From the NCBI GenBank assembly GCA_031271295.1, contig JAISVZ010000032.1, forward strand, positions 1,869 to 65,868: a stretch of DNA of 64,000 nt, given 5' to 3'. The notes beneath the pieces were generated by a model, which saw only the letters and a program-made list of their open reading frames with translations, was not told the DNA's origin and did no database searches. The DNA is from Clostridiales bacterium. Lineage in GTDB: Bacteria > Bacillota > Clostridia > Lachnospirales > WQUN01. Below are positions 1-64,000 of this stretch, piece by piece; position 1 is the first letter of the stretch; each line of letters opens with the position of its first letter. The translations under genes were made by a program, and so were the position numbers.

Positions 1-467
1 TAAAAAAACTAAAACCCGGCGGGGAGGATATAGGCTTTGTGGGCGAGGTAACGGAAGTTGATAACAAAATAATTAAAACCCTTATCGACAACGATTTTAT
101 TCCGGTAATATCCCCCATAGGCATAGACGAAAACGGCGAAACCTACAACATTAACGCGGATTACGCGGCGGTTGCAATTGCAGGAGCGTTAAAAGCCGAA
201 AAGCTTGTGTTTTTAACGGACGTATCCGGCCTTTTAAGCGACAGGAACGACGCGGATAGCGTAATTACCAGAATTGAAGCGTCCCGCATTAGGGAACTTT
301 TGGCGGACGGAACAATTTCCGGCGGTATGATTCCCAAAATTCAGTGCTGCATGGCGGGAGTTGAAGCGGGAGTTGCGCATGTTCATATTTTAGACGGTCG
401 CGTGGAGCACGCGCTGATTCTTGAAATATTTACAAAAGAGGGTATCGGAACTATGATATACTCGTAA
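1..467 (+). CDS. argB: acetylglutamate kinase, C-terminal ~155 codons (5' end outside window)
   Basis: The frame is open from the window edge (from nt 3: KKLKPGGEDIGFVGEVTEVD...). IPVISPIGIDENGETYNINADYAAVAIAGALKAEKLVFLTDVSGLL and GGMIPKI are the conserved ArgB/amino-acid-kinase core. argD follows directly. Confidence 0.9.
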   Translation, partial: KKLKPGGEDIGFVGEVTEVDNKIIKTLIDNDFIPVISPIGIDENGETYNINADYAAVAIAGALKAEKLVFLTDVSGLLSDRNDADSVITRIEASRIRELLADGTISGGMIPKIQCCMAGVEAGVAHVHILDGRVEHALILEIFTKEGIGTMIYS

Positions 468-534
468 TTTGAAAGTTGTTTTTACAATTGCTTAAAAAGG
501 CGTGTAAATTTTAATCCTGGGAGGAGATTTTTAA

Positions 535-1692
535 ATGGAAAAAGGAATGCAGTATATAATGAACACATATTCACGCTTCCCCCTAAAACTTGTAAGGGGC
601 GAAGGCACATATGTTTACGATGAAAACGGCAAAAAATATTTGGATTTTGCGGCGGGGATAGCGGTAACGTCTTTGGGGCACGCAAACAAAAAACTTACCG
701 AGGCGATTAAAAGCCAAGCGGAAAAACTGCTTCACATATCCAATTTATATTGGAACGAGCCGCAAATTACGCTTGCGGAAAAGCTTGTTAAAAACAGCGC
801 GTTCGATAAGGTGTTTTTCTGTAACAGCGGCGCGGAATCCGTAGAGGCGGCGCTTAAACTTGCCCGCAAGTACGCATCTAAAAGCGGGAGCGGTAAATAT
901 GAAATTATAGCGATGAATAATTCCTTTCACGGTCGCACTTTGGGCGCGATAACCGCAACAGGGCAAAAAAAATACCGGGAAGGGCTTGCGCCGCTTTTAC
1001 CAGGAATAATCCACGCCGAATTTAACGATATTAAAAGCCTTGAAGCGCTTATAACGGACAAAACCTGCGCGGTACTTTTGGAACCCGTTCAGGGCGAATC
1101 CGGAATACACCCGGCGGATAAGGATTACCTTGTAAAGGTACGCGAATTATGCAACCAAAACAATTTGCTGTTAATATTCGACGAAGTGCAGTGCGGCGCG
1201 GGAAGGTGCGGAAGTTTGTTCGCGCACGAAATTTACGGAGTTTATCCCGATATTGCCGTTATGGCAAAAGGGCTTGCGGGCGGCGTTCCTATAGGCGCTA
1301 TGCTTGCAACCGAAAAAGCCGCGCAAGGCTTTAAACCGGGAGACCACGCTTCAACCTTTGGCGGAAACCCGCTTGCAACGGCTGCGGCAAATGTTGTTAT
1401 GGACGAGTTAACCGGCGGCTTACTTTCAAACGTAAAAAAACAGGGCGAATACTTAACTTTGAAATTAAAGGAGCTTGCGGCAAAACATAAATGCATTACC
1501 GAAGTCCGCGGGCTTGGGCTTATGCTTGGCATTGAACTAAACGTTCCCGCAAAGGATATTGTTGCAAAGTGCATCGAAAACGGGCTTTTACTTGTAAGCG
1601 CGGGCGAAAGGGTAATAAGGTTTGTGCCGCCTTTAACAGTTTCGAAAGAAGAAATTGACGAACTTGCGGGTATTTTGGATAGCTCTATTTAG
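535..1692 (+). CDS. argD: acetylornithine aminotransferase (class III PLP aminotransferase)
   Basis: 385 aa. Motifs FCNSGAESVEAALKLARKY, LLIFDEVQCGAGRCG and STFGGNPLA. GGGAGGAG RBS about 9 nt upstream of the ATG. Lies downstream of argB. Confidence 0.92.
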   Translation: MEKGMQYIMNTYSRFPLKLVRGEGTYVYDENGKKYLDFAAGIAVTSLGHANKKLTEAIKSQAEKLLHISNLYWNEPQITLAEKLVKNSAFDKVFFCNSGAESVEAALKLARKYASKSGSGKYEIIAMNNSFHGRTLGAITATGQKKYREGLAPLLPGIIHAEFNDIKSLEALITDKTCAVLLEPVQGESGIHPADKDYLVKVRELCNQNNLLLIFDEVQCGAGRCGSLFAHEIYGVYPDIAVMAKGLAGGVPIGAMLATEKAAQGFKPGDHASTFGGNPLATAAANVVMDELTGGLLSNVKKQGEYLTLKLKELAAKHKCITEVRGLGLMLGIELNVPAKDIVAKCIENGLLLVSAGERVIRFVPPLTVSKEEIDELAGILDSSI

Positions 1693-1700
1693 ATGAACTT

Positions 1701-1730
1701 AAAAAGGATACGCATTAGCGTATCCTTTTT
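1701..1730. terminator. bidirectional rho-independent terminator between convergent genes
   Basis: AAAAAGGATACGC-atta-GCGTATCCTTTTT: 13-bp arms with A-run and T-run flanks, between argD (+) and the 1749-2339 gene (-). Confidence 0.8.
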
Positions 1731-1748
1731 GATTTAAGTATGTTTTGA

Positions 1749-2339
1749 TTATTCCGTTTTAAACGAAGCTTCCCATTCGTCGAAACCTTTTCTTACCGCA
1801 TCCAACGTATCGTAGGAAATTTGCGGGAGTTTGTCGCCCCACAATTTTTCGGCTTCCGCAAAACCTTCTTCAACAGCGTCGCGAAGGGTAGCGATTTTGG
1901 AAGGATCCCCGCCGGAAAGAGCTTTCGCGAAGTTAAGAATTCTCTCGGAGGTTTGTTTTACGCCGAAATAACCGTCTTCACTAATTGCTTCCTCGGCTTC
2001 CGCTCTTGTTGCTTCGTCAACCTCAAGGCTTTCCCAAAAATCCTTAGACCACTGCATACCGCCCGCTTTTAACGCTTCGTTGCCCTGCTTGCCAAAAAGC
2101 TTAGTAACCAAGGTTTGAAGACGCGCTTCCGCGCTGTTTGCTTCGTCGATAGCGGCTTTAATTGCTTTAGGGTCAATCTCATACGTTTTAGAACCGGATT
2201 TTTCATACACCGCTGCCGCGCTGTTTAACAAGTCCTCAGTTTCATCCGCCGAAACAGCCGTGTTTGTGCTTGCCGCCGCGGATTGGTTTGTTTGTGCTGC
2301 AGTTGTTGCGTAATTGTTATTTACTGCTGCTACATCCAT
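1749..2339 (-). CDS. hypothetical protein, DUF5610-like C-terminal half
   Basis: 196-aa ORF with GGGAGATGA RBS before the ATG. N-terminus is low-complexity (A/T/Q/N/S rich). SERILNFAKALSGGDPSKIATLRDAVEEGFAEAEKLWG resembles DUF5610-type proteins, from memory only. Confidence 0.6.
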   Translation of the reverse strand: MDVAAVNNNYATTAAQTNQSAAASTNTAVSADETEDLLNSAAAVYEKSGSKTYEIDPKAIKAAIDEANSAEARLQTLVTKLFGKQGNEALKAGGMQWSKDFWESLEVDEATRAEAEEAISEDGYFGVKQTSERILNFAKALSGGDPSKIATLRDAVEEGFAEAEKLWGDKLPQISYDTLDAVRKGFDEWEASFKTE

Positions 2340-2505
2340 GTTGTCATCTCCCTTTTTTATTGATTTAAAACAGTTTTTGAACCTCTAATTTATTTATCGG
2401 TCAATTTTGGAAAACACGTAATATTATTTATAAAATAATTAAGAAATTATTTAGTGGTTTTTTAAATTATCATTGAAGCCAATACGCGGCTTAACCATAT
2501 ACTTA

Positions 2506-3141
2506 CTAAAAATTTAAAATCATGCTGTGAACGCTTTCGTACCCGATTGTGGTTTTGCCTCCGTGCCCCGGATAAACTACGGTTTCGGGCGCAAGCGTAA
2601 ATAATTTTTCCTTTATTGAACGGGCAAGCACTGGCAAATTTCCAGTTGGTAGCTGCGTTGTGCCAATGCCGTCTTTAAACAGCGTATCCCCCGAAATTAA
2701 AATATTTTCGTTTTCAAAATAAAAGCACAAACTGCCGGACGTATGCCCCGGCGTTGCAATTACCCTTATGTTAAACCCGGCAAGGGTTATATTTTGCGCG
2801 TCGTCAAGCCATATATCCGCTTCAAGCGCCGTGGTTTTGCCGTACATACCCGAAAGATTCATAGATGTATCCGATAAAATTTCCCGCTCGGCGGACGCGG
2901 CGTAAATTTTTACGCCATAGGTATCGCACACTTCCCGCGCCGCCATTATGTGGTCGAAATGCCCGTGTGTTAAAAAAACGGCTATGGGCGTAAGGTTAAG
3001 TTCGGCAAGCTTTTTTTGAATTTTCGGAAAATCCCCGGCGGGGTCCGCTATGATTGTTTCTTTGGTTTGCGTGTTTGAAATTAAATAGCAGTTTGCCTGC
3101 CACTCGGTTAAGGCAATTGTTGTTACAAAGATGTTTGGCAT
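2506..3141 (-). CDS. MBL-fold metallo-hydrolase (glyoxalase II-like)
   Basis: 211 aa. THGHFDH metal-binding motif, plus downstream TPGHTSGS and PGHG motifs typical of the metallo-beta-lactamase fold. Confidence 0.85.
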   Translation of the reverse strand: MPNIFVTTIALTEWQANCYLISNTQTKETIIADPAGDFPKIQKKLAELNLTPIAVFLTHGHFDHIMAAREVCDTYGVKIYAASAEREILSDTSMNLSGMYGKTTALEADIWLDDAQNITLAGFNIRVIATPGHTSGSLCFYFENENILISGDTLFKDGIGTTQLPTGNLPVLARSIKEKLFTLAPETVVYPGHGGKTTIGYESVHSMILNF

Positions 3142-3234
3142 GTGGGGTTCCTCGCTTTAAATTTTATTTTTGCCGCTTACTGCTTATATGTTTGAAACGG
3201 CTTCGCCGCTTATTGCATAAATTTCATTTCGCAG

Positions 3235-3720
3235 CTAATCTTGAATAAATTTCAGTAATTCATTAAACCATTCGGGCATAGTTTTTGTTTTTGAAATTAT
3301 TTCTCCGTTACGGTATTCGCCAACTTCGTTAAACCCATTTTCGTTATCGTAAAAATACGCTTCCATGCAATACGGTAGAACCGCTTTTAAATCCGCAAAC
3401 CTACCCGCAAAACGGCGGATAACATCGGATGCGGGAATATCATGCCCGCCCTTTTCAACGCGGTTTTTAATTCGCTTTATGCTTTCTTCGCAGGAATTTA
3501 AGCCTATATAAAACAAACGTATAAAGTATCCGCTCTCGTGCGCCGCCTTTACGGTTTTCTTTATAAAATTCCCGGATAACGTTGTTTCCTGAGTAAACGA
3601 AACGCCGTCGGATAACAACCGCCTAATCTTTTTTGCGGCTGTTTTGTTACCGTCATTTTGCGAAGCGTCAATGATTGCCGTAAAGCGTTGCCGCCAAACG
3701 CAGAAAAAATTACAACCTCG
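3235..3720 (-). pseudogene. zeta-toxin-like P-loop kinase remnant lacking the N-terminal Walker A region
   Basis: Translation ...TAIIDASQNDGNKTAAKKIRRLLSDGVSFTQETTLSGNFIKKTVKAAHESGYFIRLFYIGLNS...GGHDIPASDVIRRF matches the post-P-loop part of zeta-toxin/AAA kinase proteins. The frame is open upstream only to a TAA (complement of 3721-3723). It has no ATG/GTG before the TTG at 3618 and no GxxGxGK[ST]. Confidence 0.6.
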
Positions 3721-3898
3721 TTATACCATATATATACGTTTGGGGCAAGCTCTTAATCGGATAGAGGACGGAGGTGGACGGAGGGCATAGATCTTAGACT
3801 AATTCTTAGACTAAATCATAGGCTTAGACGTTGAAACCGAATCCTGCCGTAAATGTTTTTTGGATACCTCGCTCTTTTTTAATATTCGCAAATTATGT

Positions 3899-61350: not shown

Positions 61351-62229
61351 ATGAAGGGATTCGGCAGAGGACGCAAAAGGGGTAAACACATAACGCTGGC
61401 TTTACGCAAGCGAAAGGTAAAACGCGATTTTCCAACGCGCGAACCGGTTAGGAGCGAACGGGTTAAACGCGAACCGTTAAGCCGCGAACCGGATAAACTC
61501 GCATCTTTCAGGCGCAAACCGTTAAAACGCGAATCCTTCAAACGCAAAGCTTTCAAACGCGAACCGGACAAACGTTTACCGCATCACGGGTTGCGTTCCG
61601 CCTCAAAATACCGCCGTATTATTATTTTTACCATTTTTCTGATTTTATTAACAGTAATACTCGTTCAAATAGACAAAAAGGCGTTTCCGCAAATTTACGA
61701 AATGGCGCGGATACAATCCATGAATAAAATAAACAACGCCGTAAACTTTTCGGTAACGGATATTTCAAGCAAAATGAACCTTACCGCGTCGGATTTTTAT
61801 GTTAAATCCTTTGACGAAGCGGGGCGGGTTTGCGATATTGCGGTAAACACAATTTTGGTTAACGAGTTCTGCGCGAATTTGGCGCAGGATATTTCCGGCA
61901 ACCTTGTTTTTATGGAAAATGAAAAAGTGAGCCTTCCAATCGGCTCACTTTCCGGGCTTTATTATTTAGCGAACTTGGGGCCTTCGTATTCCGTTTCCGT
62001 GCGCCCAATGGGCGAAACACGCGTGGATTACGACTGCTCGTTCGAATCCGTAGGAATTAATCAGGTAAACTTTCAAATTTGGCTTATGGTAGAGGCAAAG
62101 GTTTTGGTGGTTAACCCGCTTAAGCGGCAGGAAATTGAGTTAAGCCGCAAGGTTTCGCTTGTAAATACCGTTATAACCGGAGATGTGCCGGATACTTATT
62201 TAAACGCCGGGGGGATGTTTGGGGGGTGA
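61351..62229 (+). CDS. yunB: sporulation protein YunB with K/R/E/P-rich N-terminal extension
   Basis: GGGGG RBS 7 nt upstream. One TM (IIIFTIFLILLTVILV), then a YunB-like core (...LPIGSLSGLYYLANLGPSYSVSVRPMGETRVDYDCSFESVGINQVNFQIWL...). The first ~85 residues are repetitive (KREP/KRES units). Confidence 0.75.
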   Translation: MKGFGRGRKRGKHITLALRKRKVKRDFPTREPVRSERVKREPLSREPDKLASFRRKPLKRESFKRKAFKREPDKRLPHHGLRSASKYRRIIIFTIFLILLTVILVQIDKKAFPQIYEMARIQSMNKINNAVNFSVTDISSKMNLTASDFYVKSFDEAGRVCDIAVNTILVNEFCANLAQDISGNLVFMENEKVSLPIGSLSGLYYLANLGPSYSVSVRPMGETRVDYDCSFESVGINQVNFQIWLMVEAKVLVVNPLKRQEIELSRKVSLVNTVITGDVPDTYLNAGGMFGG

Positions 62230-62270
62230 AAAGCACCGAAAAAACTTGTGAGATTTTTTCTCACACTCTA

Positions 62271-62299
62271 TTGTATTTCTCTTTTTCTTTGGATATACT
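62271..62299 (+). promoter_or_regulatory. sigma-A type promoter of the ATPase/RloB pair
   Basis: TTGTAT (62271-62276), 17-nt spacer, TATACT (62294-62299), just after a small hairpin that ends the yunB transcript region. Confidence 0.5.
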
Positions 62300-62326
62300 G
62301 TATATCTAGAAGGAGGAATGATGACT

Positions 62327-63550
62327 ATGCTCTGCCAATTTACCTTTAGCAATTTTAAGTCTTATAGAGATGAAGTAACCCTTGATTTTTGCCCTGCCAA
62401 TATATCCGAGCACCCGGAAACGCTAATTGTTGATAAAACAGATAATACCAAATATTTGCCGGTTGCGGCCATATATGGCCCTAACGGCGGAGGAAAATCA
62501 AACGTTATTGAAGCGTTTCTTTTTTTAAGAAAAACCGTATTAACTCAGCCGCGCCTTGATGAAAACGAATTTCCAATTGATAAGACTCAAACGGTGCGCT
62601 CACATACAACCACAAATAAACACTTTATGTTTAATAATTCCGGTGCGGTATTGCCAACTTCCTTTGAGGTTATTTTCAGAGTGAAGGGGTACGAATTCAA
62701 GTATATTCTTAAAATAAAAGCGGGATTGGTGTTCGAGGAAAATCTGTATGCCACCGATATTAAAGGAGATATCGTCTCACTTGTTTTTGAACGCTCAAAA
62801 GATAATATAGAGCTTGGTGATTCGCTTAGCGGCGCACAAGCCGAGAGCATCAACCCAGCAATGCCTTTAATTCAGTTTCTTGCCGCAACATATGATTATG
62901 ACATACCTAAAGACGTAGTATCTTGGTTTAAAGCAACTTATGTAATTAATTACGGAAACCCACGCTATGAGAATGCAATTTTTTTTCCGGATACGGAAGA
63001 TGTTAAAAAGCTTTTTTTCGGCATCCTAAATGAGATGGATATAAATATAAGTGATATACGTATTGATAAAGATGAAGATGGTAAAATTACCAATATCCAA
63101 ACGGAGTATAAAGTTTTAGGCGGCAACTATTATCTTAATTACGATCAAGAATCGGCGGGAACTCAAAAGTTACTGTCGTTTCTGATGCTACCGCTAAATG
63201 CGCTAAAAAAAGGAAGCGTTTTATTTGTGGACGAATTAGACGCAAAACTTCATCCTAAAATGTTAGAGTATATTATAAAGCTGTTCACGGACCCCTCAGT
63301 TAATAAAAACGGAGCTCAGCTTGTAATTACCTCACACGACATTTATACGATGAACAATGTAATTTTTAGGCGGGACGAAATATGGTTTGCCGCAAGAAGT
63401 AACGATTTATCATCGCGTTTGTACTCGCTGTCGGATTTCAAAAAAGGAGATAAGAAGGCAAGGAAGGATGAAAACTACGGCAAACAATATATTGAGGGCA
63501 GGTACGGCGCAGACCCATACCTTAAAAAAATAGTTGAATGGGAGGTATAA
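62327..63550 (+). CDS. AAA_21/AAA_15-type ATPase (AbiLi / RloA-like, OLD-family ATPase-like)
   Basis: The start is probably the ATG at 62327 (AGGAGG at 62311-62316). MLCQFTFSNFKSYRDEVTLDF is an SMC/ABC-like N-terminus. Walker A GPNGGGKSN. ESAGTQKLLSF (Q-loop/signature-like). Walker B VLFVDELDAKLHP. ITSHD. Confidence 0.8.
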   Translation: MLCQFTFSNFKSYRDEVTLDFCPANISEHPETLIVDKTDNTKYLPVAAIYGPNGGGKSNVIEAFLFLRKTVLTQPRLDENEFPIDKTQTVRSHTTTNKHFMFNNSGAVLPTSFEVIFRVKGYEFKYILKIKAGLVFEENLYATDIKGDIVSLVFERSKDNIELGDSLSGAQAESINPAMPLIQFLAATYDYDIPKDVVSWFKATYVINYGNPRYENAIFFPDTEDVKKLFFGILNEMDINISDIRIDKDEDGKITNIQTEYKVLGGNYYLNYDQESAGTQKLLSFLMLPLNALKKGSVLFVDELDAKLHPKMLEYIIKLFTDPSVNKNGAQLVITSHDIYTMNNVIFRRDEIWFAARSNDLSSRLYSLSDFKKGDKKARKDENYGKQYIEGRYGADPYLKKIVEWEV

Positions 63551-63552
63551 CA

Positions 63553-64000
63553 TGAGCAAGAAACCTCTCAAACATGGAGATCAAAAAGTTATAGATGAAA
63601 GGCTTCGCTTGAAAGCCGCAAAAAAGATTAGGCGTACCGAAGAATTACCTCTGCTTCCGCCAATCACCAAAATTTTTTGCGAGGGAACAAAAACAGAACC
63701 CCACTATTTAAAGGAAATCGTCAACAGCATAACGGAGCGTTATAAGAAATATGCTATGGAAAACCGCATAAGCCTTGATGATGTAGTGCAAATTGAAGGA
63801 GTTGCCCGCAGCGGAAAAAGCCTTTTGGAATACGCCAAAAAACACGTACCCACGGACGTTGTGAACGTATGGTTGGTATATGATAAAGACGACTTTCCGC
63901 CTGAGCAATTTAACGTTACTCCGAAAATGGCCGCCGCTGAAACGAAGAAGGGAAAGGTAAACTACAGTACCGCTTGGTCGAACGAATGCATTGAATTATG
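63553..64000 (+). CDS. RloB-like (Toprim-related) protein, N-terminal 149 codons (3' end outside window)
   Basis: Not in the supplied ORF track because it runs off the window. The ATG at 63553 is 2 nt after the ATPase stop, with a GGGAGG RBS. My own translation contains IFCEGTKTEPHYL, VWLVYDKDDF and AWSNECIEL, the three RloB family motifs. Confidence 0.8.

What the first reader, a model, noticed from the sequence alone, without database searches (positions are those of the whole stretch)
62271..64000. AAA ATPase plus RloB-like Toprim protein: AbiL/OLD-like two-gene defence module inserted after yunB
This unit is AT-rich and has its own promoter. It encodes an SMC/ABC-like AAA_21-type ATPase (GPNGGGKSN; VLFVDELDAKLHP). 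Two nt later, an RloB-like gene begins. I translated it myself because it is absent from the ORF track. It carries the motifs CEGTKTEPHY, VYDKDD and WSNECIEL.

ATPase plus Toprim-like partner is the split form of OLD-family nucleases. As I recall, it is the architecture of AbiL (AbiLi/AbiLii), and it is related in logic to PARIS and Gabija. It follows conserved cell-envelope and sporulation genes, so it probably marks the start of a defence island that continues beyond the window.
Basis: partly seen in the sequence, partly recalled or inferred. Interest (0 to 1): 0.6.

Follow-up and report, generated by a model that had tools for sequence, protein, structure and literature searches.

The report
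Ordinary AbiL-type phage-defence gene pair
This is an intact but ordinary member of the known AbiL family of two-gene phage-defence systems (an ABC-type ATPase plus an RloB nuclease-like protein), sitting alone after the sporulation gene yunB and not at the edge of a defence island.

Summary
A 410-aa ORF (62318-63550; probable start 62327) matches Pfam AAA_21/AAA_15 and the PADLOC AbiLi model (3e-85). One base after its stop, a 235-aa ORF starts at 63552. It runs past the window to contig position 64259-equivalent and matches Pfam RloB over its full length (2e-38) and PADLOC AbiLii (4.5e-27). All quoted motifs are present, and the catalytic residues are conserved in both proteins.

The ATPase model resembles Rad50/SMC heads, OLD nuclease, PtuA and GajA. 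The RloB model has Toprim-like strand order and acidic motifs, but Foldseek found no solved Toprim structure. That link therefore rests on the literature.

The pair is tightly conserved. In 72 of 80 related loci RloB follows the ATPase, and in 67 of 69 its start lies within -11 to +4 nt of the ATPase stop.

It stands alone. Upstream are LtaS-like, PBP1A and yunB genes. Downstream are a convergent GNAT gene and unclassified secreted proteins. There are no R-M genes and no defence island.

Verdict: a new member of a known kind, of low interest. Two side notes: the genome carries three diverged AbiL pairs, and a fourth AbiLi-like ATPase has an unrecognised 194-aa partner.

The parts
62247..62265 (+). 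7-bp palindromic hairpin (TGTGAGA-TTTTT-TCTCACA) just after the yunB stop; a weak terminator-like site
   Evidence: Terminator scan (L002 316-334); RNA fold
62271..62299 (+). Candidate promoter TTGTAT-17 nt-TATACT, weak and unverified
   Evidence: Read from the sequence. It fell below the consensus scan threshold, and no + strand site was called here.
62311..62316 (+). Shine-Dalgarno AGGAGG of abiLi, 10 nt before ATG 62327
   Evidence: Sequence. The 407-aa form starting at 62327 is the one called on an independent contig.
62318..63550 (+). abiLi-like ABC/SMC-type ATPase gene (410 aa from 62318; probably 407 aa from 62327). Motifs: Walker A G54-K60, signature-like E278-S-A-G-T282, Walker B D305-E306, H312, Q334, H340
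   Evidence: Pfam AAA_21 7.9e-31, AAA_15 1.4e-14, SMC_N. PADLOC AbiLi 3.2e-85. Invariant residues in a 64-sequence alignment. AF2 model pLDDT 85. Foldseek hits: Rad50 3e-10, OLD 6p74 3e-9, PtuA, GajA.
63540..63545 (+). Shine-Dalgarno GGGAGG of the RloB gene, inside the 3' end of abiLi, 6 nt before the ATG
   Evidence: Sequence. In 67 of 69 related loci the RloB start lies -11 to +4 nt from the ATPase stop.
63552..64000 (+). abiLii/RloB-family gene, first 149 codons. The full gene has 235 codons and ends at window-equivalent 64259 (L002 1621-2328). Conserved acidic residues: E44, E49, D111, D113, D114, E145, E148
   Evidence: Pfam RloB 2.1e-38 over profile positions 3-195 of 195. PADLOC AbiLii 4.5e-27. 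81-sequence alignment. AF2 model pLDDT 90.3 with b1-E / b3-DxD order.

Best explanation
This is a stand-alone, horizontally acquired AbiL-family anti-phage module made of two translationally coupled genes.

The first protein is an ABC/Rad50-SMC-type ATPase (AbiLi-like) with all nucleotide-binding and hydrolysis motifs intact. The second is an RloB/AbiLii-family protein. It is a small alpha/beta domain with a Toprim-like arrangement of acidic residues: a Glu after strand 1, DxDD after strand 3, and ExxE after strand 4. These residues most likely bind divalent metal and cut nucleic acid.

The proposed mechanism is inferred by analogy with PARIS and from published toxicity data on AbiLii homologues. 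The ATPase assembles with the nuclease and holds it inactive. It senses a phage-derived cue. ATP-dependent rearrangement then frees or activates the nuclease, and cleavage of a cellular or phage nucleic acid stops growth and aborts the infection.

Shown here: gene structure, family membership, conservation of catalytic residues, conserved pairing and coupling, patchy distribution, and solitary context.

Inferred: the defence phenotype, the division into sensor and effector, and the target.
For: - Family assignment: AAA_21/AAA_15, RloB full length, PADLOC AbiLi 3.2e-85 and AbiLii 4.5e-27.
- ATPase motifs are invariant across 64 homologues. Its AF2 model matches Rad50/SMC heads, OLD nuclease 6p74, Septu PtuA and Gabija GajA.
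- The RloB acidic residues are invariant or nearly so in 81 homologues. The model (pLDDT 90) puts them at the C-terminal ends of strands 1, 3 and 4 of a four-stranded alpha/beta fold.
- The pair is conserved as a unit. RloB follows the ATPase in 72 of 80 loci, and 4 more are cut off or degraded. Starts lie within -11 to +4 nt of the ATPase stop in 67 of 69 loci.
- It behaves as an accessory gene. RloB occurs in 54 of 401 species of the order. No close orthologue exists in 40 relatives. Relatives are found in Lachnospiraceae, Collinsella, Spirochaetes and Bacteroidaceae. GC is in the lowest 9.4% of genome windows. The pair is absent after yunB in two syntenic relatives.
- Literature: AbiL is an experimentally shown lactococcal Abi system grouped with ABC-ATPase + TOPRIM systems (PMC13064643, PMC11464382). 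F. nucleatum AbiLii is toxic in E. coli (PMC3985639). AAA + TOPRIM_OLD pairs behave as toxin-antitoxin pairs (PMC10440598).
Against: - There are no functional data for this locus or for any close relative. The nearest database homologues are only 48% (ATPase) and 56% (RloB) identical.
- The mechanism of AbiL itself is unsolved (PMC13064643).
- In Dy et al. 2014, the cognate AbiLi did not neutralise toxic F. nucleatum AbiLii when supplied from a second plasmid (PMC3985639). That does not fit a simple 'ATPase holds the nuclease' model.
- My own tests did not recover a Toprim relationship for RloB. Foldseek against PDB gave no hit at E<=0.001. A profile search of PDB sequences found nothing relevant. 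hhalign against a small DUF4435 (AriB) alignment was not significant.
- The PADLOC AbiLii match covers only profile positions 17-89 of 170.
- Expression is unverified, and the promoter is weak by consensus.
Confidence: 0.8

Rival explanations
1. The pair is a toxin-antitoxin type addiction module, with RloB as toxin and the ATPase as antitoxin. It stabilises the DNA segment it sits on and has no real role in phage defence.
For: NetFlax classed AAA + TOPRIM_OLD and RloB nodes within the type II TA network and validated AAA-neutralised toxins (PMC10440598). AbiLii from F. nucleatum is toxic (PMC3985639). The pair is tightly coupled and bicistronic, and its distribution is patchy and mobile-looking.
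Against: The founding member, AbiL, gives phage resistance (PMC13064643). TA behaviour and abortive-infection defence are not exclusive; PARIS is both. No plasmid, integrase or other mobile-element gene is seen next to this pair that it could be stabilising.
Confidence: 0.1
2. The pair is an RloA/RloB-type accessory of a restriction-modification system. It acts together with a type I R-M encoded elsewhere rather than as a stand-alone system.
For: RloB was named from genes inside Campylobacter type I R-M loci (cited in PMC10440598 and PMC13064643). The genome does carry HsdM-like N6_Mtase genes.
Against: The four N6_Mtase hits are on contigs C171, C204, C100 and C43. None is on C37/C165 or on the contigs of the other AbiL pairs. 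The immediate neighbours are cell-envelope, sporulation and GNAT genes. The homologous pairs examined are also solitary.
Confidence: 0.04
3. The pair is a housekeeping DNA-repair or chromosome-maintenance pair: a RecF/SMC-like ATPase with a Toprim-like nuclease.
For: The ATPase resembles Rad50, SMC and RecF heads.
Against: The NCBIfam RecF and SMC scores are far below their cut-offs. RloB is present in only about 13% of species of the order, and the pair is absent from most of the family. This genome carries three diverged copies. The best match by far is the defence model AbiLi.
Confidence: 0.03

Closest known systems
AbiL (AbiLi/AbiLii) of Lactococcus lactis plasmid pND861 (Deng et al. 1999), as modelled in PADLOC
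   Same: Same two-gene order, ATPase then RloB-family protein. The best PADLOC hits are AbiLi (3.2e-85) and AbiLii (4.5e-27). Same Pfam families, AAA_21/AAA_15 plus RloB.
   Different: It is chromosomal, in a spore-forming Bacillota metagenome-assembled genome, not on a dairy plasmid. The lactococcal sequences themselves were not at hand, so sequence identity to them was not measured. The AbiLii profile is only partly covered. No phenotype is known.
PARIS (AriA ABC ATPase + AriB DUF4435 Toprim nuclease)
   Same: The same logic of an AAA_15/21 ABC ATPase followed by a small acidic-motif nuclease. The ATPase also hits the PADLOC AriA models, second-best at 3.1e-32. It is the mechanistic template for the explanation given here (PMC11464382).
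   Different: The effector is RloB, not DUF4435. There is no Pfam DUF4435 hit even at E<=10, and hhalign against DUF4435 proteins was not significant. The 2026 review reports that AbiLii and AriB superimpose poorly (PMC13064643). Trigger and target are unknown here.
OLD-family nucleases (class 1 P2 Old / Ts OLD; class 2 Gabija GajA)
   Different: ATPase and nuclease are separate proteins here. There is no UvrD-like helicase partner. Foldseek did not link this RloB model to any OLD Toprim structure.
RloA/RloB genes within Campylobacter type I R-M (hsd) loci
   Same: Same RloB Pfam family and the same ATPase partner type.
   Different: This pair is not embedded in an hsd operon. The HsdM-like genes lie on other contigs.

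Membership tests
AbiL (PADLOC/DefenseFinder sense) | First gene encodes an AAA_21/AAA_15 ABC-type ATPase that matches the AbiLi model | tested here: met
   Pfam AAA_21 7.9e-31, AAA_15 1.4e-14. PADLOC PDLC02335 AbiLi 3.2e-85, far ahead of AriA at 3.1e-32.
AbiL (PADLOC/DefenseFinder sense) | Adjacent, co-directional second gene encodes an RloB-family (PF13707) protein that matches the AbiLii model | tested here: met
   RloB 2.1e-38 over the full profile. AbiLii 4.5e-27, although only profile positions 17-89 of 170 are aligned. The spacer is 1 nt.
AbiL (PADLOC/DefenseFinder sense) | Confers phage resistance by abortive infection and needs both genes | not testable with these tools
   This needs cloning and phage challenge. 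Only literature on homologues is available (PMC13064643, PMC3985639).
ABC ATPase (Rad50/SMC/OLD clade) | Walker A, signature-like motif, Walker B with catalytic Glu, and H-loop; Rad50-like head fold | tested here: met
   G54, N56, G59, K60, E278, S279, G281, T282, D305, E306 and H340 are invariant in 64 sequences. Foldseek hits: Rad50 3.1e-10, OLD 3.2e-9, PtuA, GajA.
Toprim-fold nuclease (OLD-like) | Four-stranded parallel sheet with a conserved Glu after strand 1 and DxD after strand 3; detectable similarity to known Toprim domains | tested here: inconclusive
PARIS | Effector is AriB (DUF4435, PF14491) | tested here: not met
   No DUF4435 hit for the second protein at E<=10. The own genome has no PF14491 match.
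Gabija / class 2 OLD | Fused ATPase-Toprim GajA with an adjacent UvrD-like helicase GajB | tested here: not met
   The genes are split and no helicase is nearby. The neighbours are yunB and a GNAT gene. The ATPase gave no GajA model among its 25 best PADLOC hits.
RloAB accessory of type I R-M | Located within an hsdR/M/S operon | tested here: not met
   Flanks are an LtaS-like gene, PBP1A, yunB, a GNAT gene and unclassified genes. N6_Mtase genes are found only on C171, C204, C100 and C43.

The most novel reading that the evidence does not exclude
RloB effectors may form a nuclease class that is structurally and mechanistically distinct from the solved OLD, AriB and GajA Toprim domains. No solved structure is retrieved for a pLDDT-90 model of this RloB. 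This genome could then offer a natural specificity series. It holds three deeply diverged AbiL pairs (ATPases 26-36% identical, RloBs 22-27%), and a fourth AbiLi-like ATPase is coupled to an unrecognised 194-aa partner. In that reading each ATPase senses a different phage cue, and the fourth drives a new kind of effector.
Probability: 0.15. Interest if true: 0.5.

Novelty: new member of a known kind. Interest (0 to 1): 0.2.

Why it matters
Its importance is limited. Standard tools such as PADLOC would already label this pair AbiL, and relatives occur in hundreds of species. It adds one more intact, sequence-divergent example from an uncultured spore-former.

Two things give it modest value. 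First, the mechanism of AbiL itself (trigger, target, stoichiometry) is still unsolved, so any well-behaved homologue is a candidate for biochemistry. Second, the genome holds three diverged pairs and a fourth ATPase with an unknown partner, which could serve a comparative study of sensor specificity.

The check also corrects the expectation of a defence island at this site.

Tried and rejected
- **Foldseek of the RloB model against PDB.** The best hits were noise (TM-score about 0.2-0.3), and no Toprim or OLD entry appeared. BFVD returned only a phage 'RloB-like protein' at 6.2e-10.
- **Sequence and profile searches of PDB with RloB.** Nothing relevant was found. phmmer of the ATPase against PDB was also empty.
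- **hhalign of the RloB profile against six DUF4435 (AriB-like) proteins taken from genomes of the order.** The result was not significant. Both profiles are shallow, so this is weak negative evidence.
- **tblastn of the ATPase against PLSDB plasmids to reach the lactococcal AbiL.** There were 185 plasmid records, all below 60% identity, and none of the 30 records listed was from Lactococcus. Direct identity to the founding member could not be measured.
- **Search for an 'empty site' in relatives to define insertion boundaries.** The relatives belong to other genera (YunB about 40-45% identical). Two keep the LtaS-PBP1A-yunB order without the pair, but their downstream genes map to another contig (C13) in this genome, so no boundaries could be drawn.
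- **Defence-island idea.** I extended the contig through a 119-nt end overlap with C165 and found no PADLOC hit in the added 4.2 kb. Rejected.
- **R-M accessory idea.** Rejected on context.
- **NCBIfam** gave no specific model for either protein.

Full report
**What is in the sequence**

The window is C37:1869-65868 of a 3.69-Mb, 220-contig genome. At 62318-63550 (+) lies a 410-aa ORF, and a second ORF from 63552 runs off the window end.

The AGGAGG at 62311-16 makes ATG 62327 the likelier start of the first gene. An independent Logan contig with the same yunB-ATPase-RloB-GNAT order carries the identical 407-aa call.

The ATPase stop (TAA, 63548-50) is followed by one base and then the ATG at 63552. 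GGGAGG sits 6 nt upstream of that ATG.

The contig extends 738 nt beyond the window. There the second ORF closes at window-equivalent 64259, giving 235 aa.

**Family assignment**

- The first protein matches Pfam AAA_21 (7.9e-31), AAA_15 (1.4e-14) and SMC_N.
- Its best PADLOC hit is AbiLi (3.2e-85), far ahead of AriA (3.1e-32) and weak PtuA, MADS and HEC hits.
- The complete second protein matches Pfam RloB across the whole profile (2.1e-38) and PADLOC AbiLii (4.5e-27). That alignment covers only part of the AbiLii profile.
- NCBIfam has no specific model for either protein.
- No solved structure is detectable by sequence.

**Are the proteins likely to be active?**

In a 64-sequence alignment of the ATPase, these positions are invariant:
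- Walker A: G54, N56, G59, K60.
- A signature-like E278-S-x-G-T282.
- Walker B: D305-E306.
- H312, Q334 and the H-loop H340.

The AF2 model (pLDDT 85.1) matches Rad50 heads (3e-10), cohesin and condensin heads, Ts OLD nuclease 6p74 (3.2e-9), Septu and retron-Ec78 PtuA, and Gabija GajA. It is a Rad50/SMC/OLD-clade ABC ATPase.

In an 81-sequence RloB alignment, T48, E49, Y52, D111, D113, N144, E148 and W150 are invariant. E44, D114 and E145 are nearly so.

The AF2 model of RloB (pLDDT 90.3) is a four-stranded alpha/beta domain followed by a helical C-terminus. E44 follows strand 1 (39-43). D111xD113D114 ends strand 3 (105-111). E145 and E148 follow strand 4 (137-143). From established knowledge of the fold, this is the Toprim pattern: a Glu after b1 and DxD after b3.

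**Toprim claim: what I could and could not show**

- Foldseek of the whole RloB model against PDB gave no hit at E<=0.001 and no Toprim or OLD entry among the top 50.
- BFVD returned only a phage 'RloB-like protein'.
- hhalign against six DUF4435/AriB-like proteins collected from genomes of the order was not significant.

**Is the pair a unit?**

The ATPase family is very large: 7460 proteins with E<=0.001 among the 8000 candidates scored.

In 72 of 80 fetched loci an RloB gene follows the ATPase on the same strand. Two more are cut by contig ends and two carry degraded RloB remnants. In 67 of 69 loci the RloB start lies between -11 and +4 nt of the ATPase stop. The closest relatives are 48% (ATPase) and 56% (RloB) identical.

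**Context**

Upstream are a sulfatase-family (LtaS-like) membrane protein, a class A PBP and YunB. Downstream, 62 nt after the RloB stop, is a convergent GNAT acetyltransferase cut by the contig end.

The last 119 nt of C37 are identical to one end of the 4316-nt contig C165, end to end. If the two contigs are adjacent, the next 4.2 kb complete the GNAT gene. They also add a 210-aa protein, an 889-aa ORF (the 840 residues from its internal ATG were the part searched) and a protein with a weak FTP-propeptide hit. None has a PADLOC hit.

HsdM-type methyltransferase genes exist in the genome, but on other contigs. So the pair is neither inside an R-M operon nor at the edge of a recognisable defence island. 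An examined homologue (L019-L021) and the two paralogous pairs in this genome are likewise solitary among housekeeping genes.

**Acquired or ancestral?**

- The pair has 38.7% GC against a genome-wide 43.9% (sd 3.8%), the lowest 9.4% of same-sized windows. This is a mild signal.
- None of 40 relatives has a close orthologue; the best, in G022, is 39% identical over a partial match (query residues 102-393).
- RloB occurs in 54 of 401 species of the order, in 43 of 180 genera.
- Close relatives of the ATPase sit in Lachnospiraceae, Oscillospiraceae, Collinsella, Spirochaetes, Bacteroidaceae and Selenomonadaceae.
- Two relatives (G004, G028) keep PBP1A-yunB (G004 also the LtaS-like gene) but have no AbiL genes after yunB.

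This fits horizontal acquisition. The available relatives are too distant to define insertion boundaries, and no repeats or integrase genes mark the site.

**Regulation**

A 7-bp hairpin (62247-65) follows yunB.

The leader can also fold so that a U-rich stretch pairs with the abiLi Shine-Dalgarno sequence (62274-62320). The whole 103-nt segment folds at -24.3 kcal/mol, z = -2.8. This was not pursued.

**Mechanism**

Shown: an intact ABC ATPase and an intact acidic-motif RloB protein, encoded as a coupled, conserved, accessory pair of the AbiL family.

Inferred: the ATPase forms a complex with the RloB nuclease and restrains it, senses a phage cue, and releases or activates the nuclease. Nucleic-acid cleavage then arrests the cell and aborts infection. 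The basis is as follows:
- PARIS works this way: AriA scaffold, AriB release, tRNA-Lys cleavage (PMC11464382).
- AbiL gives abortive-type resistance in Lactococcus (PMC13064643).
- F. nucleatum AbiLii is toxic in E. coli (PMC3985639).
- AAA + TOPRIM_OLD pairs behave as toxin-antitoxin pairs (PMC10440598).

Against a simple sequestration model, AbiLi did not neutralise AbiLii when supplied in trans (PMC3985639). The AbiL trigger and target are unknown.

**Verdict**

The defence-island extrapolation is not supported. This is a new member of a known kind, of low interest by itself.

**Side observations**

- The genome has three deeply diverged AbiL pairs. It was the only one of 401 sampled genomes of the order with three RloB genes.
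- A fourth AbiLi-like ATPase on C164 is followed by a 194-aa ORF. That ORF has no Pfam or PADLOC family and no similarity to the RloB profile.

Noticed in passing
G000:C2:17973-19879 (-) = L015 9938-11913; G000:C23:10847-12993 (-) = L016 10823-12993: The same genome holds two further complete AbiLi + RloB pairs (PADLOC AbiLi 3e-91 and 2e-70; AbiLii 3e-18 and 2.5e-16). They are deeply diverged from the window pair (ATPases 35% and 26% identical, RloBs 27% and 22%). Each sits alone among housekeeping genes: PBP/FtsW/U32 peptidase at one locus, GDSL esterases/beta-lactamase at the other. This was the only genome with three RloB genes among 401 sampled in the order.
   Followed up: partly
G000:C164 = L017 5466-7343 (+): A fourth AbiLi-like ATPase (425 aa, PADLOC AbiLi 4.5e-65) is followed 15 nt later by a 194-aa ORF. 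That ORF has no Pfam hit (even at E<=10), no PADLOC hit, and no hhalign similarity to the RloB profile. It may be an unrecognised effector partner. AcrB/HlyD efflux genes lie upstream.
   Followed up: partly
window 62274-62320 (+): The abiLi leader can form a long hairpin in which a U-rich tract (UUUCUCUUUUUC) pairs with the Shine-Dalgarno region (GAAGGAGGAA). The 103-nt segment folds at -24.3 kcal/mol, z = -2.8. This could occlude translation on read-through transcripts from yunB. It is untested, and no comparative data are available.
   Followed up: no
G000:C165 (L127) 447-3837, joined to the C37 end by a 119-nt identical overlap: The probable downstream neighbours are an 889-aa ORF with an acidic low-complexity N-terminal region and two similar halves, and a 210-aa membrane-anchored protein. 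Neither has a significant Pfam or PADLOC family.
   Followed up: partly
L048 7217-7417 and L062 7299-7502 (related loci): In two related genomes the AbiLi-like ATPase is intact but the RloB gene after it is reduced to a short N-terminal or C-terminal remnant. This suggests occasional loss of the putatively toxic partner.
   Followed up: no
window 61351-61620 (+): YunB carries a long basic N-terminal extension before the Spore_YunB domain (Pfam hit only at residues 193-282). The relatives' YunB ORFs are mostly shorter (209-300 aa). Another note of this scan already flags this.
   Followed up: no
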